Below are positions 47,413 to 61,536 of a stretch of DNA of 64,000 bases, piece by piece. Position 1 is the first letter of the stretch. Each line of letters begins with the position of its first letter. The notes under the pieces were generated by a model. That model ran no database searches. It saw only the letters and a program-made list of their open reading frames with translations, and had not been told where the DNA came from. This stretch comes from an uncultured Clostridium sp. (GTDB taxonomy: Bacteria > Bacillota > Clostridia > TANB77 > CAG-508), in assembly GCA_947575605.1 (NCBI GenBank), contig CANPNZ010000002.1, positions 31,020-95,019 on the forward strand, written 5' to 3'. A program made the translations under genes and the position numbers.

Positions 47413-48342
47413 TTAAATCCTATTACTTGAACCAAAAACATTTGTCATCTTGTGTTTTACAGTTTCTTTGATTAATTCTCTGGCAGGTGTTAGATATTTT
47501 CTAGGGTCAAAAGTACTTGGTTCTTCTGCCAATACTTTTCTAATTCCCCCTGTCATAGCCAAACGTAAATCGGTGTCAACATTTATTTTAGATACTCCAG
47601 AGATGCTAGCTTCGTGCAATATTTCATCTGGTACTCCTTTTGCTCCTGGTATATCTCCCCCATATTGATTACACATTTCTACTAATTCTGGAATGACGGT
47701 TGAAGCACCATGTAATACAATTGGCGTATTTGGTATTCTCTCTTTGATTTCTTTCAAAATGTCAAATCGCAATTTGGCTTCTCCTTTAAATTTATAAGCA
47801 CCGTGACTTGTCCCAATGGCAATGGCTAAGGAATCACATCCAGTTCTTTCTACAAACTCTTGTGCTTGTGCTGGGTCTGTATACATAGCATCTGATGCCT
47901 CTACATTCACTTCATCTTCTATTCCTGCTAATTTTCCAAGTTCCGCTTCTACAACTACCCCTTTGCTATGAGCATATTCCACTACTTTTTTCGTTAACGC
48001 TACGTTTTCTTCAAAATCATATTTTGAACCGTCTATCATAACTGACGTAAAACCATTATCAATACACATTTTAGCTGTTTCAAAATCTGGACCATGATCT
48101 AAATGAATCGCAATGGGAACTTCTGGATATTGTTCTACGGCTGCTTCTACCATCTTCATTAAATAGTTAACTCTAGCATACTTAATAGCACTCGCGGAAG
48201 CTTGTAAGATAACTGGTGATTGACTCTCATGGGCAGCATCTACAATAGCTTGTATAATTTCCATATTGTTGACATTAAAAGCTCCTATGGCATATCCTTC
48301 TTTCATTGATTTTTCAAACATTTCTTTTGTTGTTACTAACAT
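47413..48342 (-). CDS. fba: class II fructose-bisphosphate aldolase
   Basis: Class II FBA motifs; start MLVTTKEM with GGGAGG RBS. Confidence 0.9.
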   Translation of the reverse strand: MLVTTKEMFEKSMKEGYAIGAFNVNNMEIIQAIVDAAHESQSPVILQASASAIKYARVNYLMKMVEAAVEQYPEVPIAIHLDHGPDFETAKMCIDNGFTSVMIDGSKYDFEENVALTKKVVEYAHSKGVVVEAELGKLAGIEDEVNVEASDAMYTDPAQAQEFVERTGCDSLAIAIGTSHGAYKFKGEAKLRFDILKEIKERIPNTPIVLHGASTVIPELVEMCNQYGGDIPGAKGVPDEILHEASISGVSKINVDTDLRLAMTGGIRKVLAEEPSTFDPRKYLTPARELIKETVKHKMTNVFGSSNRI

Positions 48343-48530
48343 ACTTTTTCCTCCCTTTTTCATGATAGAATAATATCTACTAACTTTTTGTTTTATAAAG
48401 TTATTGTATTTCTATTTTTTTTATCTGTCAAGTGTACTATCTTTTAAAGGTATAAAAAAATAATATACTAAACTTTCTAAGAATAAAAAAGGTTGGTATA
48501 TTATTATACGGCAACCTTTTCACAAATTTT

Positions 48531-48698
48531 CTATTCTTGTTCGTGTTTATAACTTGCACACATAGATTCATCTGCTAACTCTGTATTCATATTTTCAATT
48601 GGTGCTACATGTATTGCTTCTAATGTACATTTTGCTTTTTCACGATTATTATATTTACAACTTGCTACTGTACAGTTAATTTTTTGATTTGCTTCCAT
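48531..48698 (-). CDS. DUF1540-like small Cys-rich protein (55 aa)
   Basis: MEANQKINCTVASCKYNN...CTLEAIHV...MCASYKHE pattern of DUF1540; below the 60-aa ORF cutoff. Confidence 0.45.
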   Translation of the reverse strand: MEANQKINCTVASCKYNNREKAKCTLEAIHVAPIENMNTELADESMCASYKHEQE

Positions 48699-48785
48699 TT
48701 TGTACCCCCAAAATTTTATTTTTTAAACTTTTCAACCCTAAAGATGAAAATTTTATATATTTTAGTATGTACAATTTTTTCAAAA

Positions 48786-49355
48786 TTATTTTGTTTTATC
48801 TAATCTATTGCATTCCTTTTTATTTTCAAGACATTTTTTAGGCGGTTCTTGGAAACTCAAATACCAACTAATTCCATTTCCATTTTTTTCAATTTCTTCA
48901 TTTCTTGTTTGTAATTTTGCAAAAGTTTTAGGTGGCGGAACAATAACAGGTTGCCCTGGCATCCAGTTCGCTGCCGTAGAACCTTTGCTACAATCTGCCA
49001 TTTGCAATGCTTGCACAGTTCTTATAATTTCTGGAATAAATCGTCCTACATTTAGTGGATAAATTAATATCGTTCTTACAATGCCTTTATCATCAATAAT
49101 GAATACATTTCTTACTGTTTCTGTATTACTTATATCATTGGCGATCATTCCATATTTTCTGGCAATTTGACCATTTCTGTCTGCAATAATAGGAAACGAT
49201 ATTTTTATTCCTGTTTTACAATAAATGTCATACATCCAAGCTAAATGCGAACTGTTACTGTCTACACTTAGCCCCAATAATTCTGTGTTTAATTCCTGAA
49301 AATATTTTTGTGCTCTAGTAAAAGCTATCATTTCTGTTGTACAAACAGGGGTGAA
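48786..49355 (-). pseudogene. 1-Cys peroxiredoxin (Prx6-like), C-terminal fragment (from the CTTE of the active site onward)
   Basis: Begins ...FTPVCTTEMIAF; the upstream 46 codons are missing here and are found at 60400-60545. Confidence 0.8.
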
Positions 49356-49378
49356 GTACACATCTTTGGGTGTCATTT

Positions 49379-50959
49379 TTAAATCATTTTTTCAATATCT
49401 GTTTTTAATTCAAATTTTATCATTTTATCTCTATTTATATAAATTTTATCTATGAGCATTTGCAAAATCATTCTATTAGGTACTTCTGATTTTATAATTT
49501 CATCAAAATATTCAATTGAATTTCTTAACTTATTTCCTTTTTCTTCTAAATGCTTTTTTTCATCTTCTTGTAATAATGCTTTTAAATAAGAAATATTTTT
49601 TACTTTTTCCTTTTCAAGTTCTTTATATGTATTTTCAATAATCTTTCTTGCTATTTCATTATTAGCAGATGCCAGCTCTTTAATTTTTTGATTAACTAAC
49701 ATTTTATATTCTTCATTTAAGATGTTTATATTGTTTCGTAACTTAATTTTATTATCTTCTTTCTTATTTTGTTTTATTTCAATCTTAATATTTTGTATTT
49801 CTTCTAAATATTGCTTTTTAGTAAATTTTAAAAATTCTTTTAAATGTATTAAAATATCTTTTTCTTTAACCTCGTGGCAGTGACAAGCTTTTGTACTAAA
49901 TTGTCTATATCTTGAACAATCATATCCCTTTTCTTTTACTTTTCTCCTAATTACTATACCTGACATTCCTGAACCACAATCTTCACACTGACACATTCCT
50001 GAAAAATAATAGTCTCTTTTTGTATTTGTTCCTGAAGTATTTTGTTCATTCTTTTTCTTTCTTATTTCTTGTGCTAACTCGAATATTTCCTTTGAAATAA
50101 TTGGCTCGTGATGATTTTCAAATACAAAATGTTCTTCTTTTGGTAGCTTTACAGCTTTTCCTCTAATATTTACTGTTCGCTTTTTATGAGTAATTAAAGT
50201 ACCTGTATAAATCTCATTTTTTAATATATTACTTACCATATCTTTTGTCCAATCTTCTTGAACTTTGTGTCTATAAACTCTACCTTTTTCTAAATGTTTC
50301 ATTCTATAATATTCAGATGGTGTTGGATAATTATATTTTGTATTTAATATTTCGCTAATCTTTTGAAATCCATATCCATTTTCAACATATAATTTAAATA
50401 TAACTTCAATAACTGGTTTTAGTTCGTCTATGATATAGAGCATAGGTATATCGTCTTTAAAAACTTTTTCATAGCCATAGTAATTTCCCATAATTAGTCT
50501 TGCGTTTTTTTGCTTAGAATACATATGATCTCTTGTTTTTCTTGAGCAATCTTTTACATATCTTTCATTAAACCAAGTAGTTATTCCAATCGTATCATCT
50601 CTGTCATTTAAAACATCATAAGTTCCGCCCATTTCTGAAACTAGAATTAGATTTTTTTGCATATTTTTAAATTCATCTATAAGCACTAAAACTCTTCCAT
50701 TATTTCTGCCAATTCTTGATAAATCTTTTGCTATAACTACATCAATTTCTCCTCCTTTTACTTTCTCCATCATTTTTGAAAATTCAGGTCTATTAAAGGT
50801 ATATCCCGAAACATTGTCATCTATGTAGAAGTCTTCATCTTTGATAATCCAATTACAAGCCACTGCATAATCTTTAATAATTCTTTTTTGTTCCTCTATG
50901 CTTGAATAATTTTCTTTATCTTCATCTCTAGACAATCTACAATATCCTACAACTGTCAT
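49379..50959 (-). CDS. large serine recombinase
   Basis: GYCRLSRDEDK catalytic Ser; DLSRIGRN; zinc ribbon CQCEDCGS...CSRYRQ; long coiled-coil C-terminus; AAAGGAGG RBS. Confidence 0.9.
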   Translation of the reverse strand: MTVVGYCRLSRDEDKENYSSIEEQKRIIKDYAVACNWIIKDEDFYIDDNVSGYTFNRPEFSKMMEKVKGGEIDVVIAKDLSRIGRNNGRVLVLIDEFKNMQKNLILVSEMGGTYDVLNDRDDTIGITTWFNERYVKDCSRKTRDHMYSKQKNARLIMGNYYGYEKVFKDDIPMLYIIDELKPVIEVIFKLYVENGYGFQKISEILNTKYNYPTPSEYYRMKHLEKGRVYRHKVQEDWTKDMVSNILKNEIYTGTLITHKKRTVNIRGKAVKLPKEEHFVFENHHEPIISKEIFELAQEIRKKKNEQNTSGTNTKRDYYFSGMCQCEDCGSGMSGIVIRRKVKEKGYDCSRYRQFSTKACHCHEVKEKDILIHLKEFLKFTKKQYLEEIQNIKIEIKQNKKEDNKIKLRNNINILNEEYKMLVNQKIKELASANNEIARKIIENTYKELEKEKVKNISYLKALLQEDEKKHLEEKGNKLRNSIEYFDEIIKSEVPNRMILQMLIDKIYINRDKMIKFELKTDIEKMI

Positions 50960-50996
50960 TTTTCCTCCTTTTGCCTGATATTGCTCTTGGTCTATA

Positions 50997-51230
50997 TTAG
51001 CATACATTGTCCGATAACTCCACTTGTTTCGCAATTATTTTTTTGAGAATTTCGGGATAATTCTTTGTTCCTGTTACAAATATTCCAATTTTATACTTTT
51101 GTTCTTCATATTTTTCAATTGTTTCTTTAGTTTCTTGTTGTTCTAATTCTTCTTTAGTTAGATAAATTTGCATATATTTGGTATTAGAGATTTCATTAGA
51201 AGTAATTTGCATATTATTTAACTCCTTCAT
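50997..51230 (-). CDS. small conserved protein upstream of the recombinase (paralog at 56528-56761; possible directionality/regulatory factor)
   Basis: 77 aa, about 75 % identical between the two elements, co-oriented and immediately upstream of each recombinase. Confidence 0.45.
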   Translation of the reverse strand: MKELNNMQITSNEISNTKYMQIYLTKEELEQQETKETIEKYEEQKYKIGIFVTGTKNYPEILKKIIAKQVELSDNVC

Positions 51231-52065
51231 AATATTTCTCCCTAAATATTATGCAAAAAGAAACATATAAATATCTCCTTTTGTCTTAAAAAATTACTTG
51301 ATGAAATCTAATACACAACTTTCTTGATTACTATCAATAAATCACCTCCTGTTTTTAACATTAATAAATTTCTTTCTAATAATAGGAGTACCATTATTAA
51401 GCATAAATGTTGTATTTTATAAAAGAATTATTTCTATATAATAAAAATTTCTATATAATAAAAACTCCTTTATTAATATAAATCCAATATTTATGAATAA
51501 TGTTGTAAAATTATATATTTTTTATTTCTAATAAATAAGAACACTTTTTATTTTTAGAATGGGGAATTTTCTGAATTAAATATCTATCAAAACAAAAGAA
51601 ATGATAATCATGTATAAAAACACAATTATCATTTCTTTTTAGCTATAACATTGTATATGTGCCAATGTTTCATTTTTCCTAATCCAGTTTTTCCATCTTT
51701 TTCTAATTCATTAAAGTGTATTATTTCAAAAGCTAACACTTGCTCTTTTGTTAGAAATACCATTTGTTCTTTAATTTTTGTCCATGAATCATTTAATAAA
51801 AAAAGTTTCCAACAAAGTATCCGACCTTTTAAAATACTATCATTTATCTTATTCCAAAATTCATTAAAATAATCTTTACTACAAAAGGGAATACTAAAAT
51901 TAGAACTAATAGATTATTTTTTTCTAATTTAATATCTTCAAAGTTTTGAAGATTAAATCTAATAATATCAATTCCTTTCAATTTCTTAACAAGTATTATA
52001 GCATACAATTTTATAAAAAGTAATAGGAGAATGAAAATTTTATTTTTCCACTCTCCTATCGTGCC

Positions 52066-53100
52066 TTAAAACTTTTTCCAGCACTGAGGATCTTTTGAAT
52101 AAAAGTTTCCAGTTAAACATTTGGCTACCGAAGGACATCCTCTGCAAAAGTTCTTGATTTCACATTTAGAACAATGTTCAAATTTATCATACTGACGGTA
52201 TTTGTCCATTTCTTCACCATTGAAGATGTCATAGAAAGATTGCTCTGGAACTTTTCCTACAGGTGTTTCACTTCTTCTACAAGCATAAACTGTTCCATCT
52301 GCCAAAGTTGTTATGTGGGTAATTCCACAATGACATCCATCAAGAATCAGGTCATTTGGATTGTCAATCTCGTTAGGATTAAATAACCCTTTTTCATACA
52401 GATACAATTTCCAAAGATGGTCTTTCAAGGCAAACCTTGTGTCACATTCCTGATTTTGCATGTACTTTTCCCACATCTTATCCAGAAAATCTCTGTATTC
52501 TTCAGGTTCAACCATCAAATCGAAATCTTCAGGGCTAGGGCAATATCTTGCAAAACTAAAATTGCTAACTTTGTGTTTTACTACGATGTCCACTAATTCA
52601 GGAATTTCTGCAATATTTGTCTTTGAAACTGTTGTCATGATAGCAGTTTTGATTTTGCTACCCTCAAAATACTTTAAAGCATCCAAAGTAGCATCAAAAG
52701 AACCAGGCTTACGAATAAAATCGTGAGTTTCTCTCAAACCGTCCAATGACATTTGAAAGTTTATACAACCTAAATCTTCCAACTGCTTCACAACATCATA
52801 GTCCAAGTGGAACGGATTACCTAAAAGTCCAAAATGAACTTTATGTTCTTTGAGTATCTCCAGAAAATCCCATATTTTTTCGTAAAGTAAAGGATCTCCT
52901 CCTGTAATTACGAGGAAAGGGTCTCTGTTCAGCCTGTCACAACTTTGAATAAAATCTTTCAAAATTGCTTTCAATGTGCCTAAATCAAGTTCAAGACCAC
53001 ATTTTTTGTCTTTACCTTCATAGATGTAGCAATGCTTACACCGCTGATCACATCTATCAGTGATATGCCATTGCATACTGAATTTTGTTCTTTCTGCCAT
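52066..53100 (-). CDS. radical SAM/SPASM-domain peptide-modifying enzyme
   Basis: CDQRCKHCY (CxxxCxxC) cluster; C-terminal Cys-rich SPASM region (CHCG...CRRSE...CSKCEIKNFCRGCP). The ORF track starts upstream at 53181. Confidence 0.85.
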   Translation of the reverse strand: MAERTKFSMQWHITDRCDQRCKHCYIYEGKDKKCGLELDLGTLKAILKDFIQSCDRLNRDPFLVITGGDPLLYEKIWDFLEILKEHKVHFGLLGNPFHLDYDVVKQLEDLGCINFQMSLDGLRETHDFIRKPGSFDATLDALKYFEGSKIKTAIMTTVSKTNIAEIPELVDIVVKHKVSNFSFARYCPSPEDFDLMVEPEEYRDFLDKMWEKYMQNQECDTRFALKDHLWKLYLYEKGLFNPNEIDNPNDLILDGCHCGITHITTLADGTVYACRRSETPVGKVPEQSFYDIFNGEEMDKYRQYDKFEHCSKCEIKNFCRGCPSVAKCLTGNFYSKDPQCWKKF

Positions 53101-53204
53101 TATAAATCCTCCTTTTAGGGCAAGAGACACCTCTAAAAGAGATGCCTCTGCTTTGTTGAAACTAATGTGTGCTGTCGACAATACACATTATTCGTTCATC
53201 TGTA

Positions 53205-53423
53205 TTAACTACAAGATATCCTGCAAGATGTGCAAGCTCCACAGGAACAACTACTGCATTCTGTGTGACCGCTTGAGCAGCTACAAGAACAAACTGCAGC
53301 AACTACTTTGACTCCAGCTCCAACTAATTTAGCCTTTGCAGACTTCATAAAGTTCTGAGCAGAGTTTTTCCCAATGTAGTTTACACTGGGATTCCAGTAA
53401 TTTGTCCGTGCCATTCTGTTCAT
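53205..53423 (-). CDS. Cys-rich RiPP precursor peptide candidate (72 aa; 9 Cys in the last 31 residues)
   Basis: Leader MNRMARTNYWNPSVNYIGKNSAQNFMKSAKAKLVGAGVKVVAAV, then core CSCSCSSGHTECSSCSCGACTSCRISCS. RBS AAAGGAGAA. Immediately upstream of the rSAM/SPASM gene. Confidence 0.6.
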   Translation of the reverse strand: MNRMARTNYWNPSVNYIGKNSAQNFMKSAKAKLVGAGVKVVAAVCSCSCSSGHTECSSCSCGACTSCRISCS

Positions 53424-53508
53424 AGTGCATTCTCCTTTCCATAAAATTCCAACGGGTTGCTTAGAGCAATATTTACTGCCCTAAATAATACATAAAGATG
53501 TATTATAC

Positions 53509-53733
53509 TTACATAATATCATGTTTGGAATATTTTGTCAATAGTTTGTATTCTTTTACTTGACCATATGATAGATTACTCATTCCTATATTCAATTCTT
53601 TATCTATTCCATTTCTAATAATATCTGCTTTATATCTTCCTTGAGCTTTTGCAATATTCTTTATCATTTTCTTTTTATATCTTGGTATTCTTATTACCAT
53701 TGTTACTAATTCTTCATCTTTATTCTTTTTCAA
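53509..53733 (-). CDS. ribbon-helix-helix (CopG/Arc-like) DNA-binding protein
   Basis: VIRIPRYKKKMIKNIAKAQGRYKADIIRNGIDKEL fits the beta-alpha-alpha RHH pattern. Confidence 0.4.
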   Translation of the reverse strand: MKKNKDEELVTMVIRIPRYKKKMIKNIAKAQGRYKADIIRNGIDKELNIGMSNLSYGQVKEYKLLTKYSKHDIM

Positions 53734-53942
53734 ATTTTACCTTCATTCTTTTTTACTTTTTCATATCAAAATTACCTTAAAGTAATTTTGCAGGATCAGG
53801 GCGACGTCTCGAACCCCCATAACTGCCTAAAAGCGTAGCTTTTATCAGTATACACTTTCATTATAGCGATGTCACATAGACATCTCGTTTTTTGGTTAGA
53901 AAAAACCAATATAAATCCACAAATTTATATTGGTTTTCACTT

Positions 53943-54248
53943 TTATTTCAATTCTTCTTTTAATTTTATTCCATCTTTTAGTCCTGCAAAATAATATTTC
54001 TTATGAAAATAATAACTTTCAAAATCAATTGTTTCTACATAATCTTTTATCAACTTTTCAATGCTATCTTTTAGCCAATTAAGATTATATGGAATTTTTT
54101 CCAATTCTTTATTTAAACAATCAGATTTTTTAATTTTATTCGCTTTATCCTGACACATAAACTTCTTGTCTTCATCTGTAATAAAAGCCACATCTTCTTC
54201 TCTTGCTTCAAATATTGTTTCTAGCATATTGATTTTTTCTTTCTCCAT
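53943..54248 (-). CDS. hypothetical protein
   Basis: ORF only. Confidence 0.3.
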   Translation of the reverse strand: MEKEKINMLETIFEAREEDVAFITDEDKKFMCQDKANKIKKSDCLNKELEKIPYNLNWLKDSIEKLIKDYVETIDFESYYFHKKYYFAGLKDGIKLKEELK

Positions 54249-54311
54249 TTAACATCACCTCCTATTGGTGTGTGATGTTAACTCTTCTTGAAATTAATGT
54301 CAAGATAATTC

Positions 54312-54734
54312 TTAAAAGTTATTCGCATATAAACTTGTCCAATCAGAATCACTATAATCTCTGTCACTTTTATATTTATTTTTATGATTACTTTTTATCT
54401 CTTTAACATTTGTATTAATAGGTTTAGTATCAAATTGTTTATATGTATCAACATTTTTGTATATAGGTGTAATCTTCCTTAGAGCTATTTCTTTCGAATT
54501 TTCTTTATAAATCATTTCTACTTTTATATATCCTTTTTTCTTAAGTGAATTAATAATTCTTGAAGATTGTATTTTTGTAATACTTAATAATTCACTTATA
54601 TATAAATTTGACATAATACATTCTTTTTCTTTGCTTAAATATAAAATCATAGAATAAACTATTTTTTCTTTATCATTTAATTTTATATCCATTAATATTT
54701 CATAAGGTATCCATACTCCTTTAAATTCTTTCAA
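54312..54734 (-). CDS. winged-HTH DNA-binding protein (putative element replication/maintenance protein; paralog at 59812-60252)
   Basis: ISELLSITKIQSSRIINSLKKKGYI HTH; about 85 % identical paralog in E2. Confidence 0.5.
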   Translation of the reverse strand: MKEFKGVWIPYEILMDIKLNDKEKIVYSMILYLSKEKECIMSNLYISELLSITKIQSSRIINSLKKKGYIKVEMIYKENSKEIALRKITPIYKNVDTYKQFDTKPINTNVKEIKSNHKNKYKSDRDYSDSDWTSLYANNF

Positions 54735-54904
54735 TACTTTATTTTCTTTCCAATCAATCGCTCGACGATCGATTTCTAAGCCATTAAATTTAAAATTCGA
54801 TTAACTTATCAATATCGAAAATTATAAGCAATATCAGGCATTTTATTTATTCATCCAAAGATTTAGACTTTACGGGTGTAAAGTCTTACAATGTGGGGAG
54901 TTTT

Positions 54905-56484
54905 TTATATTAGTTTTTCAACATCTACTTTTAAATCAAATTTTACAGTTTTATCACTATAAATCCATATTTTATCTATTATATTTTCTAAAACATATCT
55001 GCTTGGTATTTCTTTTGCAATAATTTCATCGAAATACTCTATTGTATTTTTTAGCTTTTTTATTTTTTCTTTTGAAATTTCTTGTTCTTCTTTGTTTAGT
55101 ATTTCTTGTAATTTTTCTATTTTGTTTGTTTTATCCAGTTCTAATTCTTTATATGTATTTTCTATCATTTGTTTTTGATATTCATTTGTACTTGATGCTA
55201 AATCTTTTATTTTTTGGTTTAATAAAACTTTATATTCTGCCTTTAAAGTTTCAAGTTCATATTTAATCTTTTCTTTATTAGTTTGCATATTAGTAGTTTT
55301 TGTCTCAATTTCTATTTTAGTTATTTCATCAATATATTTTTGTCTTGTAAATTTTAGAAACTCCTTTAAATGAATAATCATATCAGTTTCTTTTATTTCA
55401 TGACATTTACATCTTGTTTTCCCATAAGTTCTATACTGGGAACATTCATATCCTTTTTGCTTTTGTTTTCGATTCATGGTTATACCGACTTACTCCAAAT
55501 CCACAATCACCACATTTAACTAATCCAGAAAAAGCATAGTTTCTTTTTCTTGTCCCGACAAGTACTTTTTGAATTTGCTTTTCTTTTTCTAATTTCTTGT
55601 GCTAATTCAAATGTTTCTTTTGAAATGATTGATTCATGATGATTTTCAAATACAAAATGTTCTTCTTCTGGAAGTTTAATTGCTCTGCCTCGTATAGAAA
55701 CAGTTTTCTTTTTATGAGTTCTTAAGTTTCCTGTGTATACATCATTATTTAAAATATTACTTATCATATAGGTAGACCATAATTTTTGTACAGGATGTTT
55801 GTATATTCTTCCTCTTTCTAAATGCTTTTGTTGATAATATACAGAAGGAGTAGGGTAGTCATATTTGCTATTCAAAATATCACAAATTTTCTTTCTACCT
55901 AAACCATCTTCAATATATAGTTTATATATTAATTCTATAACAGGTCGTATTTCTTCATCTACATATAACTTTGTAACATCTTCTGTATCTTTTACATAAC
56001 CATAATAATTTCCCATTATTAATCTTCCCGATTTTTGTTTAGAATACATATGATCTCTTGTCTTTCTTGAACAGTCTTTTACATATCTTTCGTTAAACCA
56101 TGTTGTAATTCCAATTGTATCATCTCTGTCATTTAAAACATCATAAGTTCCTCCCATTTCTGAAACTAGAATTAAATTTTTTTGCATATTTTTGAATTCA
56201 TCAATAAGTACTAAAACTTTTCCATTGTTTCTTCCAATTCTTGATAAATCTTTTGCTATTACAACATCAATTTTTCCTCCTTTTACTTTTTCAATCATTT
56301 TTGAAAATTCAGGTCTATTAAAGGTATATCCCGAAACATTGTCATCTATGTAGAAGTCTTTGTCTTCGATAATCCAATTACGAGAAATAGCATAATCTTT
56401 TATAATTCTTTTTTGCTCTTCAATACTTGCATAATTTTCTTTATCTTCATCTCTAGACAGTCTACAATATCCTACAATGGTCAT
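54905..56484 (-). pseudogene. large serine recombinase paralog, disrupted by at least 2 frameshifts in the zinc-ribbon region (55480-55570)
   Basis: N-terminal 340 aa about 80 % identical to the 49379-50959 product. Middle segment RNYAFSGLVKCGDCGFG is readable only in a third frame. The C-terminal 190 aa continue in a third ORF. Confidence 0.8.
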
Positions 56485-56527
56485 TTTTTCCTCCTCACTT
56501 GACCTGATATTGCCTATGTGCTGTATG

Positions 56528-56761
56528 TTAGCATACATTGTCTGTTAATTCCACCTGTTTCACAATAATTCTTTCAAGAATTTCGGGATAATTCTCTTTT
56601 CCTGATATAAAAATAGCTATATAATACTTTTCTTTTTTATATTTTTCAATTTTTGCTTTTGTTTCTTGTTTTTTCAGTTCTTCTTCCGTTAAATAAATTT
56701 GCATATATTTGGTATTAGAGATTTCATTAGAAGTAATTTGCATTCTATTTAACTCCTTCAT
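56528..56761 (-). CDS. small conserved protein upstream of recombinase (paralog of 50997-51230)
   Basis: Paralogy and position. Confidence 0.45.
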   Translation of the reverse strand: MKELNRMQITSNEISNTKYMQIYLTEEELKKQETKAKIEKYKKEKYYIAIFISGKENYPEILERIIVKQVELTDNVC

Positions 56762-57054
56762 AATATTTCTCTCTAAATATTATGCAAAAAGAAATACCAA
56801 TTATTTCTTTTTGTCTAAAAATTACTTTAGTAAAATTCTAATACTCTAATTTTTATTATTTTTCAAAAGCATCCCTCCTCTATAATATAAGAACACAAAA
56901 ATTTTATTAAATGGGTATTTTTAATAAAATCTTTCATATATATAAACACATTTTTTTCTATTAAATGTTGCATTTTTTGAAAAATTTATATTTTTTAATA
57001 TTTTATTCTTTTTATAAATTTAGTAATAAATGAAGATTTAACATATAAGAACAA

Positions 57055-57150
57055 AAGGGGCATGATTAATTTTTTTGACCTTTTAGATTCTTTACATGTC
57101 CCGTTTTTGTTCGCCCGCGAAAATTGCTAAGCAATTTTCTGTGGAATGCT
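57055..57150. repeat. Family D hairpin repeat, copy 2
   Basis: Matches the reverse complement of 15680-15780. Confidence 0.6.
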
Positions 57151-57235
57151 TTATATTCTAGGAAGTTCGGAGAATTTTCCTAGAATATAAAAAAGTAACT
57201 ATTGATATAGCTACTTATATAATCTTATTATTCAA

Positions 57236-57559
57236 TTATTCGTCTTTTAAATATTTTTCCCAATCCATAAAAGCATGACCGATTCTTAATACTAATACTT
57301 TAGATTTTTCTTCATCAACTATATAAAATATTATATAATTTCTTACATTGATTTTTCTAATATTTTTATGACCTGTCAAATCTTCATTTAAAATAAGCAT
57401 ACTTCCTGCTACATTTTCTAAATCTTTCAACTTTTGTTTAAATAAGAGTTTGTATTTGTCTGCTATAATATCTCCTGCTAGATTATATCGAAGATATGAA
57501 ATAATATTTTCTAAATCTTGTTCGGCAGTTTCTGAAATTTCCACTATATATTTTTTCAT
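57236..57559 (-). CDS. RelE/ParE-family type II toxin
   Basis: ParE/RelE-like length and motifs (YIIFYIVDEEKSKVLVLRIGH). Confidence 0.7.
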   Translation of the reverse strand: MKKYIVEISETAEQDLENIISYLRYNLAGDIIADKYKLLFKQKLKDLENVAGSMLILNEDLTGHKNIRKINVRNYIIFYIVDEEKSKVLVLRIGHAFMDWEKYLKDE

Positions 57560-57577
57560 AACATTTGCTCCAGTCTT

Positions 57578-57835
57578 TTACATATTATCTATTTTAGAAA
57601 AAACTTCATCTAAAGAATAGACTTTATTTTCTTTTATATCATCTAGTCCTTTTTGTAACTTTTCTTTTAAGTCTTTTTTACTTTTTATTGTTATACTCTC
57701 TGGAGCTTCTGTATCTATATATGATATTTTTAAATATTCAATAAAATTAATGACTTGATTCGTAAGTTCTTCTGGTAATGTTTCAATTTCATTATATAAT
57801 TTTTGTTTTTCTATAGACATATTGATTACCTCCAT
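57578..57835 (-). CDS. antitoxin partner of the ParE/RelE-like toxin
   Basis: Small acidic protein immediately upstream, 18-nt gap. Confidence 0.55.
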   Translation of the reverse strand: MEVINMSIEKQKLYNEIETLPEELTNQVINFIEYLKISYIDTEAPESITIKSKKDLKEKLQKGLDDIKENKVYSLDEVFSKIDNM

Positions 57836-58049
57836 AATAAATTTATACTATTATTATAGCATTTTTCCTTTCAAAAATCTATGAATTTGAGAAAATATTT
57901 TATATCTTAAAAAATAAAATATTTTTTGTTTTATCCTTTATAAAAAAAGTAACTATTTTAAATAAAACCATCTAAACAATAACTTGAGTATCTAATTGCT
58001 TTCAAGTCTTTTTATGTATCTTATTAAAAATTTATTATATTATGAAAAA

Positions 58050-58397
58050 TTACATTTGCAAATTTAATTCAAATCTTTCTATAAATCCTATCCATTCTCC
58101 TTTTTCATTCTTGACCCCTTGCATATAAACTCTTTGATTCCTAGCAGTTACGCATACAAACATTTCTTTTCCATTGCTTTTAATTCCCTCATAACCTTTT
58201 TTTATTCTTTCAATAGATTTTTCACTACTATGGCATTTAAATAGACTTTTTCCTATTAAATTTTTATATCCTCTTTCTTCATAATAATGGTATTGTGCAT
58301 TTTTATTCATAAATCTAATAATATAGTCATTATCTACAAAAACAATAGGATATGGATAACTATTCAAAATTCCTTTTAACATTTCTAATTCTTCCAT
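58050..58397 (-). CDS. PAS-domain protein
   Basis: PAS-like core (ILNSYPYPIVFVDNDYIIRFMNKNA...). Confidence 0.45.
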   Translation of the reverse strand: MEELEMLKGILNSYPYPIVFVDNDYIIRFMNKNAQYHYYEERGYKNLIGKSLFKCHSSEKSIERIKKGYEGIKSNGKEMFVCVTARNQRVYMQGVKNEKGEWIGFIERFELNLQM

Positions 58398-58529
58398 AAA
58401 TATTTCCTCCCTTAATCATTTATAATTATTATATTATTTTTTCATAGAAAACAAGCGAAAACAATATATTTTAAAAAAAGTTGTAATTTAATTACCCATA
58501 ATATAATAATGTTTTTTTCATCTAAAAAG

Positions 58530-59402
58530 TTAATTTAATTTGAATTGACTAGCCAATTTATCGATTGTAATGCCACCTCTATTTTTCCAATCAATTTCAA
58601 TACTGTTAAATCTTTTATCTTGGAAATTATTAAGTAGCTCTATCTCTTTATTCTCTAATGTAAAATCTAAAGATTGTAAATTACTATCTATATTTTGTAT
58701 TGTATTAGTTTTTATGATTGTATTTAAACCTTTCTCTTTTATCATCCAATTCAATAAAATTTGATTTTGTGTCCTATTATATTTATTTGCTAATTCTACT
58801 AAAAAAGGATAATTTCTTTTAGCTATATTATTTCTTCTTAATGCTTGATAACATACAAATTTAATATCATTAGATTTACAAAAATCTATTAAACCTATAT
58901 TTTCGTAATATTTACATTCTAAATTATACACACCTTCAAAACTATATAGTTTAAAATATTTTTGGATTTCTTTCAATTCTTCAAAAGAAGTATTGCTTGC
59001 AGATATGTATCTAATTTTTCCTTTTTCTACTAACTTGCTTATTTCTTCATATGTTTCTAGTAATGGTATCTTTAACGCATAAGATATATGAACTTGCAAA
59101 GCATCTACATAATCAATATTCATTCTCTTTAAATATTCATCTAATTGTTTTTCTACATCTTCTTTTTTCTCTATGTAAGGTTCTAAATGACAAGTAAGAA
59201 ATATATTGTCTTTACTCACTTGTTTAAAAAAGTCACCTAGAAAGTCTACAACATTACAATTATCGTATAAAAGACTTGTACTCATAAAATTTTGCCCTTT
59301 ATTAACAGAATATAATAATGATTGTAAAGTCTTATCTTTGTTTTCTAAATCAAGTTTATATGTACCTATTCCAATTGGATTAATTTTATTTAATTCTATC
59401 AT
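58530..59402 (-). CDS. aldo/keto reductase family oxidoreductase
   Basis: AKR motifs IGIGTY, DALQVH, GKIRYISASN, ILLNWMIKEKG. Confidence 0.75.
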   Translation of the reverse strand: MIELNKINPIGIGTYKLDLENKDKTLQSLLYSVNKGQNFMSTSLLYDNCNVVDFLGDFFKQVSKDNIFLTCHLEPYIEKKEDVEKQLDEYLKRMNIDYVDALQVHISYALKIPLLETYEEISKLVEKGKIRYISASNTSFEELKEIQKYFKLYSFEGVYNLECKYYENIGLIDFCKSNDIKFVCYQALRRNNIAKRNYPFLVELANKYNRTQNQILLNWMIKEKGLNTIIKTNTIQNIDSNLQSLDFTLENKEIELLNNFQDKRFNSIEIDWKNRGGITIDKLASQFKLN

Positions 59403-59811
59403 AATTTCTCCTCAATTTTACTCTTAGTATTTTCTCTTAAAACCATTATACCATATGTTTCTTTATAAAACTACTATTTGATTATAATTTTTTCTGCCTT
59501 ACCAATAATCAAAATTGCTAAAAAGCAATACAAAATGCATACTGAGACTGTAAAAAAATCAAAGATTTTAACAGCCTCAGCATTTTGCAGGATCAGGGCG
59601 ACGTCTCGAACCCACACAACTACCTAAAAACGTGGTTTTTAGCGGTATACGCTTTCATTATGGCGATGTCAAATAGATGTCTCGTTTTTTGTCAGAAAAA
59701 AGCCAATATAAATTGATAAATCTATATTGGTCTTCACTTTTATTTCAATTCTTCTAATTTTATTCCAACTTTTAGTCTTTCAAAATAATATTTTTGATGT
59801 CAAGATAATTC

Positions 59812-60252
59812 TTAAAAATTATTCGCATATAAACTTGTCCAATCAAAATTACTATAATCTCTGTCACTTTTATATCTGTAACCATTTTTATTATATATCT
59901 TATTATTATTTATTATTTCTTTAACATTTGTGTTAATAGGGTTAGTATCAATTTGTTTATGGGTATTAACATTTTTGTATATAGGTGTAATCTTTCTTAA
60001 GGCTATTTCTTTTGAATTTTCTTTATAAGTCATTTCTACTTTTATATATCCCTTTTTCTTAAGTGAATTAATAATTCTTGAAGATTGTATTTTTGTAATA
60101 TTTAATAATTCGCTTATATATGAATTTGACATGATACATTCTTTTTCTTTGCTCAGATATAAAATCATTGAATAAACAATTTTTTCTTTATCATTTAATT
60201 TTGTATTTATTAATACTTCATAAGGTATCCATACTCCTTTAAATTCTTTCAA
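59812..60252 (-). CDS. winged-HTH DNA-binding protein (paralog of 54312-54734)
   Basis: Paralogy. Confidence 0.5.
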   Translation of the reverse strand: MKEFKGVWIPYEVLINTKLNDKEKIVYSMILYLSKEKECIMSNSYISELLNITKIQSSRIINSLKKKGYIKVEMTYKENSKEIALRKITPIYKNVNTHKQIDTNPINTNVKEIINNNKIYNKNGYRYKSDRDYSNFDWTSLYANNF

Positions 60253-60399
60253 TATTTATTTTTCTTCCCAATCAATCGCTCGACAATCGATTTTGTGCCA
60301 TTAAATTATAAAATTTGATTAACTTATCAATATCGAAAGTTATAGATAATATCAGGCATTTTCATATTTTTTTCAACGTTCCCCAAATTGTAAGAATAG

Positions 60400-60545
60400 A
60401 CGGGGGTAAAATCGCCTGGATGTGAAAATAATACTAACCATTTTCCTTGATAATCTTCTAGTTTAATTTCTCCAAATGTTGTGTTTGCTTCAAACTCTGG
60501 AGCTTTTTGTCCGATTTTAACATTTCCATTCATCATTAATTCATA
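60400..60545 (-). pseudogene. 1-Cys peroxiredoxin, N-terminal fragment ([15 protein letters not shown]...[11 protein letters not shown])
   Basis: Ends exactly at the FTPV of the peroxidatic-Cys motif and then reads through into element DNA. Confidence 0.8.
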
Positions 60546-60624
60546 ATCCATAAAAAACAAACTCCTCTCATTTTTTATATCATATGAGAAAAGTTTGTTT
60601 TGGTTACATGATTTATTAGATTTG

Positions 60625-61191
60625 TTATTTACCACACAATTTTCTTTGAACCTCTTTTAATTCTTCAACTCCTTTACTTTGTTCTTTTATAATAGCATCT
60701 GCAACCGCTTTTAATCTTGGATCGATACGATAAGATAATAAATTTTTACACATAGCAATGGCACCTTCATGATGTGGTATCATTTCATTGGTAAAATCTA
60801 AATTGATATACACACATTTAGGAGTATTTTTCATTCTTTCTATCATGTTCTTGGTAATTTCTAAGTACTTTTCTTCATAACATTTTATATCTTGTATCAT
60901 GTTTTGATATCCATAGTTGGTTCTTGCAATTTCTTTCATTTGCTCAATTCCTTCTGTCTGCCTTTTAATAATATTTTTTGCTATTTGTTGTAAGGGTTGA
61001 TAAGTTGTATATTCTAATAAGTTTTCAGACATATAAATGGCTGCTTGATGATGTGGAATCATACATTGTATAAAATTAATGGTTATACTGTTTGTTACCT
61101 CTTGTGATAACATCTTTTCTGCCATTTGATTTAAAATTTCATCAAATCGAGATAAATATCTTTTGGCTCTCATAATTTGTCTATTATTCAT
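60625..61191 (-). CDS. DUF305 domain protein (two MIPHHxxAI motifs)
   Basis: Duplicated HH motifs typical of DUF305. Confidence 0.7.
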
Positions 61192-61350
61192 CTATTACAC
61201 TCTCCTTTTTGTTTTCTTTCTATATCATATAAAATTGGTACAAAAATGTTACTGTTATATAATAAACTAATTTTAACTTGTCAAAAGGCGAAATAAGATA
61301 ATTTATATTATTTTGTATATTTTTACAAATTGGGGACATACTTTTGATAT

Positions 61351-61536
61351 GTGGTGATTATTATGACAAGTAAAGAGCTTTTATATGTTGAAGATGCCTT
61401 AGGACACGAAAACTTTATGAAAACATGTAGTAAAAATACAGCATCTCAATTACAAGATGTTACTCTTTCAACTTATATAGGAGAATTAGAGCAAAAACAT
61501 ACTGAGATTTTTAATAAATTTTTAAATTTATTATAG
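61351..61536 (+). CDS. small CotF-like spore coat protein partner
   Basis: Small ORF directly upstream of a Coat_F protein; weak similarity. Confidence 0.35.
   Translation: MVIIMTSKELLYVEDALGHENFMKTCSKNTASQLQDVTLSTYIGELEQKHTEIFNKFLNLL

What the first reader, a model, noticed from the sequence alone, without database searches (positions are those of the whole stretch)
52066..53733. Cargo RiPP locus: Cys-rich precursor (9 Cys in 31 aa) with a radical SAM/SPASM maturase, GC-enriched, on intervening element E1
A 72-aa ORF with a good RBS encodes a leader followed by CSCSCSSGHTECSSCSCGACTSCRISCS. It sits directly upstream of, and co-oriented with, a radical SAM enzyme carrying a CxxxCxxC cluster and a Cys-rich SPASM C-terminus. 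This is the classic arrangement of ranthipeptide (SCIFF-type) and sactipeptide systems. The alternating Cys-Ser core is unlike SCIFF, subtilosin or thuricin precursors that I can recall. The two genes are visibly GC-richer (about 38-40 %) than the ~25 % AT-rich surroundings, suggesting horizontal acquisition as element cargo. An RHH regulator gene follows. No dedicated protease or exporter is obvious nearby.
Basis: partly seen in the sequence, partly recalled or inferred. Interest (0 to 1): 0.8.

Follow-up and report, generated by a model that had tools for sequence, protein, structure and literature searches.

The report
Mobile Cys-rich peptide plus radical-SAM cassette
A small gene for a cysteine-rich peptide sits next to a radical-SAM enzyme predicted to modify it, forming a portable cassette on a mobile element; the enzyme family is already catalogued (the "ACGX system") but nobody has tested it, the peptide is a new type for that family, and this copy has lost its third gene.

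Summary
On the minus strand, a 72-aa ORF (53423..53205, 9 Cys in its last 29 residues) lies directly upstream of an intact 344-aa radical SAM/SPASM enzyme (53100..52066). The pair has 37.0% GC against 27.3% for the window.

The enzyme is not a SCIFF, sactipeptide or sulfatase maturase. It passes the curated NCBIfam model TIGR04340, "radical SAM/SPASM domain protein, ACGX system" (acgM), with 461 bits against a cutoff of 400. It belongs to a distinct subclade, 45-46% identical to canonical AcgM.

The precursor does not match the ACGX-repeat peptide model (TIGR04341). It belongs to a small, unmodelled family with a conserved leader (TNYWN...SAQNF) and variable Cys/Ser/Gly cores. A peptide of this family sits next to the enzyme in every related locus where that region was held and examined.

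The portable unit also carries a TehB-like methyltransferase. In this window that gene is a pseudogene, and the precursor core is unusually diverged. Protease and exporter genes are absent from the locus and from its relatives. The RHH-like ORF is not part of the cassette.

The cassette is cargo of a 5.5-kb serine-recombinase element that splits a peroxiredoxin gene. The enzyme's chemistry is unknown: its nearest characterised relative is SbtM, which makes thiooxazoles, and thioether formation is the rival. I rate it a new variant of a known, uncharacterised kind.

The parts
53513..53541 (-). Cassette promoter: TTGACA, 17-nt spacer, TG-extended TATTAT. Homology with more than 15 other loci begins exactly at the -35 box.
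53424..53506 (-). Structured 5' UTR of the precursor mRNA with two tandem hairpins. It ends in the RBS GGAAAGGAG.
   Evidence: RNAalifold on 11 distinct UTRs predicts 18 pairs, 7 of them with compensatory double changes. No Rfam match.
53205..53423 (-). Precursor peptide gene, 72 aa. The leader is roughly residues 1-44 (53423..53292) with the TNYWNPSVNYIGKNSAQNFM motif. The Cys-rich core is residues 45-72, VCSCSCSSGHTECSSCSCGACTSCRISCS.
53101..53204 (-). Precursor-rSAM intergenic region with two conserved hairpins (AATGTGTA..GTCGAC..ACACATT and GAGGCATCTC-TTTT-GAGGTGTCTC), followed by the RBS AAAGGAGGA.
   Evidence: Sequences from 17 loci. Hairpins read directly from the sequences; not tested statistically.
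52066..53100 (-). Radical SAM/SPASM maturase, 344 aa, AcgM family (TIGR04340). Intact.
52022..52060 (-). Terminator-like hairpin immediately after the rSAM stop codon. It is conserved in relatives, where a separate promoter (TGATATAAT) for the methyltransferase follows it.
51629..52008 (-). Pseudogene of the cassette's TehB-like SAM-dependent methyltransferase. It has a 5' deletion of about 230 nt that removes the start codon and the DLGCGxGRD SAM-binding motif, plus two 1-nt deletions and a 15-nt deletion.
51594..51639 (-). Terminator hairpin at the end of the methyltransferase gene. This is the distal boundary of the portable cassette.
53509..53733 (-). 74-aa RHH-like ORF. It belongs to this element, not to the conserved cassette, and its last 11 codons read into the cassette promoter.
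   Evidence: (DUF6290 E 0.078)
49376..54901 (-). Element E1, the carrier: a large serine recombinase (51034..49379), a 77-aa ORF, the cassette, a 101-aa ORF and an HTH_36 protein (54734..54312). It is inserted, in tandem with the related element E2 (54902..~60390), into a 1-Cys peroxiredoxin gene at the core sequence TT(T/C)ACCCC(C/T)GT.

Best explanation
**What it is.** This is a self-contained, horizontally mobile RiPP-type cassette of the ACGX kind. The intact form has, in order:
- its own sigma-70-type promoter;
- a structured 5' UTR;
- a precursor peptide gene;
- intergenic hairpins;
- an AcgM-family radical SAM/SPASM maturase;
- a terminator-like hairpin;
- a separately promoted TehB-like methyltransferase.

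**How it most likely works.** The enzyme has no RRE domain and would bind the conserved leader (TNYWN...SAQNF). It would use 5'-deoxyadenosyl radical chemistry, with two auxiliary Fe-S clusters, to oxidise cysteines in the core. Those cysteines all sit among small residues (Ser, Gly, Ala, Thr).

**Likely chemistry.** My preferred reading, at about 35%, is a local, per-cysteine oxidation like that of SbtM, the closest characterised relative. SbtM carries out a 4-electron conversion of Cys to 5-thiooxazole. In intact cassettes the methyltransferase would then methylate the resulting thiols. Thioether cross-linking is nearly as likely, at about 30%.

**Fate of the product.** Because the cassette never has a protease or an exporter, the product probably acts inside the cell, or relies on host machinery as SCIFF peptides do.

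**This particular copy.** It is a reduced version. The methyltransferase is a pseudogene. The core carries 7 amino-acid changes plus one inserted Cys relative to an otherwise almost invariant core. It therefore makes a variant, unmethylated product or is on its way to decay.

**Shown versus inferred.** Shown: gene content, family membership of the enzyme, conservation and purifying selection, mobility, and the pseudogene. Inferred: leader binding, the chemistry, the role of the methyltransferase, and the biological function.
For: **Enzyme family**
- TIGR04340 scores 460.9 bits against a cutoff of 400, covering positions 2-340 of the 341-position model.
- Relatives at 57-63% identity are named 'ACGX system' by NCBI. 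Annotated acgA/acgM pairs exist on Clostridium and Roseburia plasmids.
- The AF2 model (pLDDT 88.5) has a SPASM maturase fold, with TM 0.75 to SuiB and to anSME. It shows no N-terminal domain ahead of the CX3CX2C motif.

**Precursor**
- It is adjacent and co-oriented in 26 of the 27 related genome loci (L010 is cut too short to show it) and in further loci, from Clostridia, Bacilli-binned MAGs and one archaeal bin.
- The leader Trp and Gln are invariant.
- The core shows 0-1 nonsynonymous against up to 14 synonymous codon differences between relatives.

**Local-modification reading**
- SbtM (TIGR04082) is the second-best model at 181.6 bits. Next come AhbD at 119, PapB at 73, anSME at 67 and SkfB at 56.
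- Across the whole family the only constant core feature is Cys flanked by small residues: ACG, SCS or CG units. These are separated by spacers of free length and composition.
- SbtM converts Cys or Sec to thio(seleno)oxazole with loss of 4 H (PMC11002830, section 14).
- 5-Thiooxazoles are readily alkylated (bioRxiv 10.1101/2025.11.18.689057).

**Methyltransferase**
- It is present in 23 of 28 loci and matches TehB-type models.

**Portability**
- DNA homology runs sharply from the -35 box (53541) to about 51630, in many different genomic contexts.
- It occurs on Tn4451-like elements and as an isolated insert between housekeeping genes.
- Its GC and GC3 are foreign to the host.
Against: - No experiment exists for any ACGX-family member. 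None was found in the searchable literature.
- The SbtM score is far below that model's cutoff (181.6 against 350). The fold search cannot separate the candidate chemistries.
- The precursor fails the family's own peptide model, TIGR04341 (against 52-74 bits for canonical AcgA). Profile comparison with canonical AcgA aligns only the YWN/GWN motif, at probability 1.8%. A shared substrate logic is therefore an assumption.
- This subclade has two extra conserved cysteines (C187, C328) that canonical AcgM lacks. That could mean different cluster ligation and different chemistry.
- In this window the methyltransferase is dead and the core is aberrant, so the locus may not be functional here.
Confidence: 0.6

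Rival explanations
1. The enzyme forms intramolecular thioether cross-links of the sactipeptide or ranthipeptide type. Core cysteines would link to alpha, beta or gamma carbons of neighbouring Ser, Thr, Asp or Asn residues.
For: - Most characterised SPASM maturases that act on Cys-rich peptides make thioethers (established knowledge: CteB, PapB, AlbA, SkfB).
- The best sequence match among solved structures is SkfB (6efn, E 9e-10).
- SkfB and SuiB are among the best fold matches.
- The two- or three-gene layout without a protease or exporter resembles SCIFF loci.
- The cores are rich in Ser, Thr, Asp and Asn, which could act as acceptors.
Against: - HMM scores against thioether synthases are low, and no better than against unrelated SPASM families. 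PapB scores 73, SkfB 56 and StsB 54 bits, while SbtM scores 182 and AhbD 119. The SCIFF maturase model is not among the 25 best hits shown.
- There is no RRE domain.
- No acceptor residue sits at a conserved spacing from Cys across the family. Canonical modules are simply ACG(S/T)ACGA or ACGxE, with free linkers.
Confidence: 0.3
2. The copy in this window is a decaying remnant that no longer makes a functional product. It would be hitch-hiking on element E1. This reading can hold alongside the main explanation for the family as a whole.
For: - The methyltransferase is a clear pseudogene. It has a 5' deletion of about 230 nt that removes the start codon and the SAM motif, plus two 1-nt deletions and a 15-nt deletion.
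- The core has 7 nonsynonymous codon changes plus one inserted codon, against 1-2 synonymous changes, relative to its nearest relatives. Those relatives differ from each other by 0-1 nonsynonymous changes per up to 14 synonymous.
- The changes include Cys to His through two nucleotide substitutions in one codon.
Against: - The precursor ORF is still in frame and still has 9 Cys.
- The promoter, UTR hairpins and RBS are intact.
- The rSAM gene is full length with all conserved Cys. Against L001 it shows 36 synonymous and 15 nonsynonymous codon differences, within the range seen among intact relatives.
- Two-gene versions without any methyltransferase exist in chromosomes, so the methyltransferase is dispensable in some lineages.
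- Hypervariable cores are normal for RiPPs.
Confidence: 0.35
3. The peptide is not a secreted natural product. Instead it would be the precursor of an intracellular redox cofactor or a metal or metalloid ligand. This would resemble the way the SPASM enzymes PqqE and MftC make PQQ and mycofactocin from small peptides. The TehB-like methyltransferase would point to chalcogen or thiol chemistry.
For: - No protease or exporter appears in any of the loci whose flanks were examined.
- Canonical acgA/acgM pairs sit among a flavin reductase, a nitroreductase, 4Fe-4S proteins, dehydrogenases, and MerR or TetR regulators.
- The methyltransferase is of the TehB type, associated with tellurite and selenite resistance.
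- The cassette rides on transposons of the kind that usually carry resistance genes.
Against: - The cores are hypervariable in length and sequence. That is not expected for a cofactor precursor; PqqA and MftA have invariant reactive residues.
- No conserved partner oxidoreductase accompanies the cassette in the window's clade.
Confidence: 0.15
4. The small ORF is not the substrate, and the enzyme acts on a non-peptide molecule. Candidates are a tetrapyrrole, as for AhbD and NirJ, or a sulfatase, as for anSME.
For: AhbD and NirJ models are the third- to seventh-best hits, at 96-119 bits.
Against: - All of those scores are far below their cutoffs of 500-650. anSME scores 67 against a cutoff of 349.
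- No haem-pathway or sulfatase gene lies on the element.
- The small ORF co-occurs with the enzyme throughout and its core is under strong purifying selection.
Confidence: 0.03

Closest known systems
ACGX system (acgA ACGX-repeat peptide, TIGR04341; acgM radical SAM/SPASM protein, TIGR04340). This is a family defined by comparative genomics and named in NCBI annotation. I found no experimental characterisation.
   Same: - The enzyme passes the curated AcgM model (461 bits against a cutoff of 400), covering the full length.
- The small precursor lies immediately upstream and is co-oriented.
- The core cysteines are flanked by small residues.
- A Trp-Asn motif sits near the N-terminus (YWN here, GWN or SWN in canonical peptides).
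- There is no RRE domain, no protease and no exporter.
   Different: - The enzyme is only 45-46% identical to canonical AcgM, which scores 578-599 bits. It has two extra conserved Cys (C187, C328).
- The precursor fails TIGR04341. Its leader is about 44 aa rather than about 18 aa.
- The core is one contiguous Cys/Ser-rich block, not ACGX modules separated by Pro/Glu/Lys linkers.
- A TehB-like methyltransferase is added to the cassette.
- The cassette is carried on serine-recombinase and Tn4451-like mobile elements.
SbtM / SbtMa, the thio(seleno)oxazole RiPP system (TIGR04082; Lewis et al. 2021, as summarised in PMC11002830)
   Same: - It is the closest characterised relative by HMM (181.6 bits, E 2e-53, over the whole catalytic and SPASM region).
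- It acts on Cys or Sec of a small peptide.
   Different: - The score is below the SbtM cutoff of 350.
- The window's enzyme aligns only to positions 198-515 of the 516-position SbtM profile, so it lacks the N-terminal ~197 residues of that profile.
- There is no selenocysteine and no SECIS element here.
- The chemistry is untested for any ACGX enzyme.
SCIFF/ranthipeptide systems (CteB, Tte1186, PapB) and sactipeptide systems (SkfB, AlbA, StsB)
   Same: - They pair a Cys-rich precursor with a SPASM maturase.
- SCIFF loci likewise lack a protease and an exporter.
- The overall SPASM fold is the same.
   Different: - HMM scores are far below cutoffs (PapB 73 against 340, SkfB 56 against 300, StsB 54 against 625).
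- There is no N-terminal RRE.
- The precursor leader and core are unrelated to theirs.
Other Cys-repeat rSAM target families defined by comparative genomics (TIGR04117 Cys-Xaa-Xaa-Xaa repeat target; TIGR04118 AC3_0185 family)
   Same: They have short peptides with periodic cysteines next to SPASM enzymes. Relatives of the window's precursor gave weak sub-threshold hits to both (E 0.09-0.16).
   Different: The hits are not significant. The partner enzymes belong to other families.

Membership tests
ACGX system (TIGR04340/TIGR04341) | The radical SAM/SPASM enzyme scores above the curated TIGR04340 cutoff over its full length. | tested here: met
   460.9 bits against a cutoff of 400, covering model positions 2-340 of 341. 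Canonical AcgM scores 578-599 bits.
ACGX system (TIGR04340/TIGR04341) | The adjacent peptide matches the ACGX-repeat peptide model TIGR04341. | tested here: not met
   No hit even at E<=10 for the window's peptide or for 8 relatives. Canonical AcgA peptides score 52-74 bits against a cutoff of 28 in the same library.
ACGX system (TIGR04340/TIGR04341) | The core contains repeated A-C-G-X tetrapeptide modules. | tested here: not met
   The window's core, VCSCSCSSGHTECSSCSCGACTSCRISCS, has no ACG and a single SCGA. Relatives instead have SCS or CG units.
ACGX system (TIGR04340/TIGR04341) | The leader is homologous to the AcgA leader (the GWN motif). | tested here: inconclusive
   hhalign aligns TNYWN with LSGWN over only 9 columns, at probability 1.8%.
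ACGX system (TIGR04340/TIGR04341) | The small precursor gene lies immediately upstream of the maturase and is co-oriented with it. | tested here: met
SPASM subgroup of radical SAM enzymes | A CX3CX2C motif plus a C-terminal Cys-rich SPASM motif that binds two auxiliary clusters. | tested here: met
   C17/C21/C24 form the CX3CX2C motif. Pfam SPASM scores E 1.7e-9. C256, C258, C274, C310, C313, C319, C322 and C340 are conserved. The predicted fold has TM 0.75 to SuiB and to anSME. Cluster binding itself cannot be tested here.
SCIFF / ranthipeptide maturases (CteB, PapB) | The maturase passes the family HMM and has an N-terminal RRE-type leader-binding domain. | tested here: not met
   PapB scores 73 bits against a cutoff of 340, and the SCIFF maturase model is not among the 25 best hits shown. 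The radical SAM motif starts at residue 17, and the AF2 model shows no N-terminal domain.
Sactipeptide / ranthipeptide class | The product contains S-to-C-alpha or S-to-C-beta/gamma thioether cross-links. | not testable with these tools
   This needs mass spectrometry and NMR of the modified peptide.
Sactisynthases (SkfB, StsB) | The enzyme scores above the family HMM cutoffs. | tested here: not met
   SkfB scores 55.7 against 300. StsB scores 53.7 against 625.
Anaerobic sulfatase maturase (anSME, TIGR03942) | The enzyme scores above the HMM cutoff and has a sulfatase partner. | tested here: not met
   66.9 bits against a cutoff of 349. No sulfatase gene is present on the element.
SbtM thio(seleno)oxazole maturase (TIGR04082) | The enzyme scores above the HMM cutoff, matches the full-length ~516-position profile, and has a Sec/Cys peptide partner. 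| tested here: not met
   181.6 bits against a cutoff of 350. Only profile positions 198-515 are matched.
Large serine recombinase integrative element (carrier E1) | A recombinase with Resolvase, Recombinase and Zn_ribbon_recom domains sits at one end, and the target gene is split so that it can be rejoined in frame. | tested here: met
   All three Pfam domains are found. The peroxiredoxin fragments at 60635..~60395 and ~49355..48786 rejoin in frame to read ...[13 protein letters not shown].... Excision activity was not tested.

The most novel reading that the evidence does not exclude
The window's clade would be an undescribed RiPP class built on an AcgM-like enzyme. It would be a portable three-gene cassette, spread among gut Clostridia on serine-recombinase and Tn4451-like elements. 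Its rSAM enzyme would convert many cysteines of a Cys/Ser-rich core into thiooxazole-type or otherwise new sulfur heterocycles. Its TehB-like methyltransferase, made only through a programmed +1 ribosomal frameshift at a rare CGG codon, would S-methylate those products. That would give a new peptide scaffold and a new example of bacterial recoding used to meter a tailoring enzyme.
Probability: 0.2. Interest if true: 0.75.

Novelty: new variant of a known kind. Interest (0 to 1): 0.5.

Why it matters
The ACGX family is named in genome annotation, yet I found no biochemical work on it. Its closest characterised relative makes an unusual heterocycle, not the usual thioether, so the family is a reasonable place to look for new radical SAM peptide chemistry.

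This analysis adds four things:
- AcgM-like enzymes serve a second precursor family that has no model.
- The unit is a sharply bounded mobile cassette with its own promoter and structured leader RNA.
- Most copies include a thiol-type methyltransferase.
- The cassette is common in gut metagenomes. One 90%-identity cluster of the enzyme holds 1054 member sequences.

For this particular window the biological importance is lower, because the copy has lost the methyltransferase and carries an aberrant core.

Tried and rejected
**Searches that found nothing**
- Literature searches for ACGX, acgM, acgA, TIGR04340 and TIGR04341 found nothing relevant.
- The primary SbtM paper could not be read. Neither its DOI nor PMC8935624 is held. 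The SbtM substrate motif therefore could not be compared with ACG.
- DNA searches of element E1 against the plasmid and phage collections gave no match. A protein search of the enzyme against phages gave no match either.
- Rfam (E<=0.1) and ARAGORN on 48000-61500 found nothing.

**Analyses that did not discriminate**
- Structure prediction plus Foldseek confirmed a SPASM maturase fold. SuiB, SkfB, anSME, ChlB and PqqE all score similarly, so this cannot separate the candidate chemistries.
- Profile-profile comparison of the new precursor family with canonical AcgA was not significant.

**Ideas considered and rejected**
- A compensated frameshift in the window's core. The DNA alignment instead shows in-frame substitutions plus one inserted codon.
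- The RHH ORF as the cassette's regulator. It is not conserved with the cassette.
- An anSME or AhbD/NirJ assignment, rejected on HMM scores.
- A tRNA-like origin for the conserved non-coding block at 53785-53958. ARAGORN finds no tRNA there.
Full report
**1. What is in the sequence**

On the minus strand, a 72-aa ORF (53423..53205) encodes MNRMARTNYWNPSVNYIGKNSAQNFMKSAKAKLVGAGVKVVAAVCSCSCSSGHTECSSCSCGACTSCRISCS. It has 9 Cys in its last 29 residues and is preceded by GGAAAGGAG.

A radical SAM gene starts 104 nt downstream. The mechanical ORF begins at a TTG (53181). The ATG at 53100 has an AAAGGAGGA RBS, and every homologue starts there. The protein is 344 aa, with CX3CX2C at C17/C21/C24 and a SPASM domain.

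The pair is 37.0% GC. The window is 27.3% and the rest of the carrier element 24.6%. The pair is the most GC-rich stretch of its length in the window, and its GC3 is 31-36% against 14-22% in host genes.

**2. What the enzyme is**

Against NCBIfam the enzyme scores 460.9 bits on TIGR04340, "radical SAM/SPASM domain protein, ACGX system". The cutoff is 400, and the match covers positions 2-340 of the 341-position model.

| Model | Bits | Cutoff |
|---|---|---|
| SbtM thio(seleno)oxazole maturase | 181.6 | 350 |
| AhbD | 119 | 500 |
| NirJ-type models | 96-102 | 500-650 |
| PapB | 73 | 340 |
| anSME | 67 | 349 |
| SkfB | 56 | 300 |
| StsB | 54 | 625 |

The SCIFF maturase model is not among the 25 best hits shown. 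The enzyme is therefore neither a sulfatase maturase nor a haem-pathway enzyme, and it is not a member of any characterised thioether-synthase family.

NCBI names relatives at 57-63% identity "ACGX system". PGAP-annotated acgA/acgM pairs exist on Clostridium estertheticum and Roseburia plasmids.

An AF2 model (pLDDT 88.5) has the SPASM maturase fold. Its best matches are SuiB and anSME (TM 0.75), then ChlB, PqqE and SkfB. It has no N-terminal RRE-like domain. The fold does not separate the possible chemistries.

**3. What the peptide is**

Canonical AcgA peptides look quite different. One example is MALSNILGWNKKEEHQAGAACGTACGAGDKPEQKPAACGTACGAGAKPDEKPAACGTACGAGDK. They have a short leader with a GWN motif, followed by ACGxACGA modules separated by Pro/Glu/Lys linkers. 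They score 52-74 bits on TIGR04341.

The window's peptide and its relatives give no hit to that model even at E<=10. Profile comparison aligns only YWN with GWN, at probability 1.8%.

The peptide is nevertheless clearly real.
- A homologous small ORF lies directly upstream of the enzyme in 26 of the 27 related genome loci, and in further loci from other look-ups. The 27th, L010, begins too close to the enzyme to show it.
- The leader has an invariant Trp and Gln, with the consensus TNYWN..V.Y...SAQ.F(L/M).
- The cores vary widely between clades. Examples are DCSCNCSSGCSACSSSCGSCTSCSTSCS, ECESGCNNSCGTACASGCTDF, SCGSCGDGPCGIGGCGSSGCDNY, ECGCESGCGSSG repeats and SCSxxxS repeats.
- Within the window's own clade the core is almost frozen. 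There are 0-1 nonsynonymous against up to 14 synonymous codon differences.

An exhaustive profile search of 1.84 billion representative proteins found only about nine small-peptide clusters. It is a small family with no model.

The enzymes of this supergroup are 45-46% identical to canonical AcgM. They have two extra conserved cysteines, C187 and C328.

**4. The real unit is a portable three-gene cassette**

Clustering the ORFs of 28 loci showed one further conserved gene. It is a TehB-like class I SAM methyltransferase, usually downstream of the enzyme and present in 23 of 28 loci.

DNA homology between the window and more than 15 loci begins exactly at a conserved -35 box (TTGACA, 53541). 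It ends at about 51630, after the methyltransferase terminator hairpin.

In order, the unit contains:
- a promoter;
- an ~85-nt 5' UTR with two hairpins, 7 of whose 18 predicted pairs show compensatory changes;
- the precursor gene;
- an intergenic region with two conserved hairpins;
- the rSAM gene;
- a terminator-like hairpin;
- a second promoter;
- the methyltransferase gene.

No protease or exporter accompanies it. This holds on Tn4451-like mobilisable elements and where it sits alone between housekeeping genes.

The 74-aa RHH-like ORF is not part of the unit. It is absent from L001, the closest related element, and its last codons read into the cassette promoter.

**5. The state of this particular copy**

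The methyltransferase is a pseudogene. About 230 nt are deleted, removing its start codon and SAM-binding motif. There are also two 1-nt deletions and a 15-nt deletion.

The precursor core differs from the near-invariant consensus at 7 codons. One change is Cys to His through two substitutions in a single codon. One extra Cys codon is inserted. Only 1-2 synonymous changes accompany these.

The rSAM gene is intact. Against L001 it shows 36 synonymous and 15 nonsynonymous codon differences, within the range seen among relatives.

This copy is therefore either a reduced two-gene variant or in early decay. Two-gene variants do exist elsewhere.

**6. The carrier**

The cassette is cargo of E1 (49376-54901), a 5.5-kb element with a large serine recombinase. 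E1 lies in tandem with a related element, E2 (54902-~60390). E2 carries a ParE toxin with an adjacent small ORF in the antitoxin position, a PAS protein and an aldo/keto reductase, and its recombinase gene is split.

Both elements sit inside a 1-Cys peroxiredoxin gene. Its two fragments rejoin in frame across the core TT(T/C)ACCCC(C/T)GT to give ...[13 protein letters not shown]....

**7. How it probably works**

Shown: the gene content, the family of the enzyme, conservation, selection and mobility.

Inferred: the enzyme recognises the conserved leader without an RRE and uses radical chemistry on the core cysteines.

Two facts favour a local, per-cysteine modification over defined cross-links.
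- SbtM is clearly the closest characterised relative by profile score. It oxidises Cys or Sec to a thio(seleno)oxazole with loss of four hydrogens (PMC11002830).
- Across canonical and new precursors, the only constant feature is Cys flanked by small residues, in modules separated by spacers of free length.

A TehB-type methyltransferase would fit S-methylation of nucleophilic thiooxazole thiols, which are readily alkylated (bioRxiv 10.1101/2025.11.18.689057).

The evidence is indirect. I give about 35% to this chemistry, about 30% to thioether formation, and the rest to something else. I found no experimental work on any ACGX member.

**8. Verdict**

Three points need correcting:
- The enzyme family is already catalogued.
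- The SCIFF/sactipeptide label is not supported.
- The RHH gene does not belong to the system.

New from this analysis are the unmodelled precursor family, the bounded mobile cassette with its methyltransferase, and the decayed state of this copy. I rate it a new variant of a known but uncharacterised kind, of moderate interest.

Noticed in passing
Related loci: L001-L008, L011, L013, L014, L016, L019, L020, L022, L024, L025 (type A); L017, L021, L036-L038, L046, L047 (type B). The remnant in the window is at about 51860.: The cassette's methyltransferase gene needs a +1 frameshift in almost every locus. An invariant extra C sits directly 5' of a Gly codon, so the incoming frame reads the very rare codon CGG (2 of 203 Arg codons in host genes of the window). 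The C occupies two different positions, four codons apart, in two clades. Both halves are under purifying selection in their own frames: variable columns at codon positions 1/2/3 are 31/15/49 upstream and 19/8/42 downstream. Only L023 and L026 are unshifted. This is a candidate programmed +1 frameshift at a 'hungry' codon. Glass-sponge mitochondria offer a precedent, with C or T inserted 5' of GGA (PMC5009743)..
   Followed up: partly
window 53424-53506 (minus strand), and the equivalent region in 11 other loci: The precursor mRNA has a conserved 5' UTR with two tandem hairpins. Seven base pairs show compensatory double changes. There is no Rfam match. Its function is unknown; it could stabilise the mRNA or serve in regulation.
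   Followed up: partly
window 48786-60635: Two related ~5.5-kb serine-recombinase elements lie in tandem inside a 1-Cys peroxiredoxin gene, right at the codons for its active-site motif FTPVCTTE. E1 carries the peptide cassette. E2 carries a ParE toxin (57559..57236) with an adjacent small ORF in the antitoxin position, a PAS protein and an aldo/keto reductase. The recombinase of E2 is split into two ORFs (56538..55516 and 55477..54905)..
   Followed up: partly
window 53785-53958 and 59582-59755; L001 3870-4290: A non-coding block is conserved at 86% identity between E1 and E2, and is also present in L001. Its predicted RNA structure is more stable than shuffled controls (z = -2.75), and a terminator-like hairpin lies on the plus strand at 53868-53884. 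ARAGORN finds no tRNA or tmRNA there and Rfam gives no match. It remains unexplained.
   Followed up: partly
window 53205-53291 (the precursor core): The window's core is an outlier within its clade. It has 7 nonsynonymous codon changes plus an inserted TGT codon, against 1-2 synonymous changes. Several changes cluster within 9 nt (GGT TGC TCA GCA becomes GGT CAC ACA GAA), which looks more like a replaced patch than independent point mutations.
   Followed up: partly
Proteins P0003, P0006, P0009, P0011, P0012 (metagenome clusters): Several database variants of the precursor have a normal leader and then run into an alternative reading frame of the core (for example ...ACIVPVDHAHLAVHLVVNTKMN). 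These could be frameshifted alleles or assembly errors in the repetitive TGC/AGC-rich core.
   Followed up: no
L036-L038 (contigs carrying P0067): A more distant version of the cassette sits inside a Tn4451-like mobilisable element. That element has a TnpX-like large serine recombinase with DUF4368, plus TnpV, TnpW and Mob_Pre genes. Elements of this type usually carry antibiotic-resistance genes.
   Followed up: no
L042, L043, L044 (plasmids of Clostridium estertheticum, Roseburia sp. and Methanosphaera sp.): Canonical acgA/acgM pairs are flanked by redox and detoxification genes: a flavin reductase, a nitroreductase, 4Fe-4S proteins, a zinc dehydrogenase, MFS transporters, and MerR or TetR regulators. 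Proteases and peptide exporters are absent. In Methanosphaera the acgM gene is annotated as two CDS.
   Followed up: no
window rSAM residues C187 and C328 (gene 52066-53100): Two cysteines are conserved throughout the window's supergroup but are Val and Gly in canonical AcgM. This may indicate a difference in how the auxiliary clusters are ligated.
   Followed up: no
window 53101-53204: The precursor-rSAM intergenic region has two conserved hairpins. The first has a GTCGAC palindrome in its loop. The second is GC-rich and has no U-tract. This resembles the processing or attenuation hairpins that set the precursor-to-enzyme ratio in other RiPP operons.
   Followed up: no
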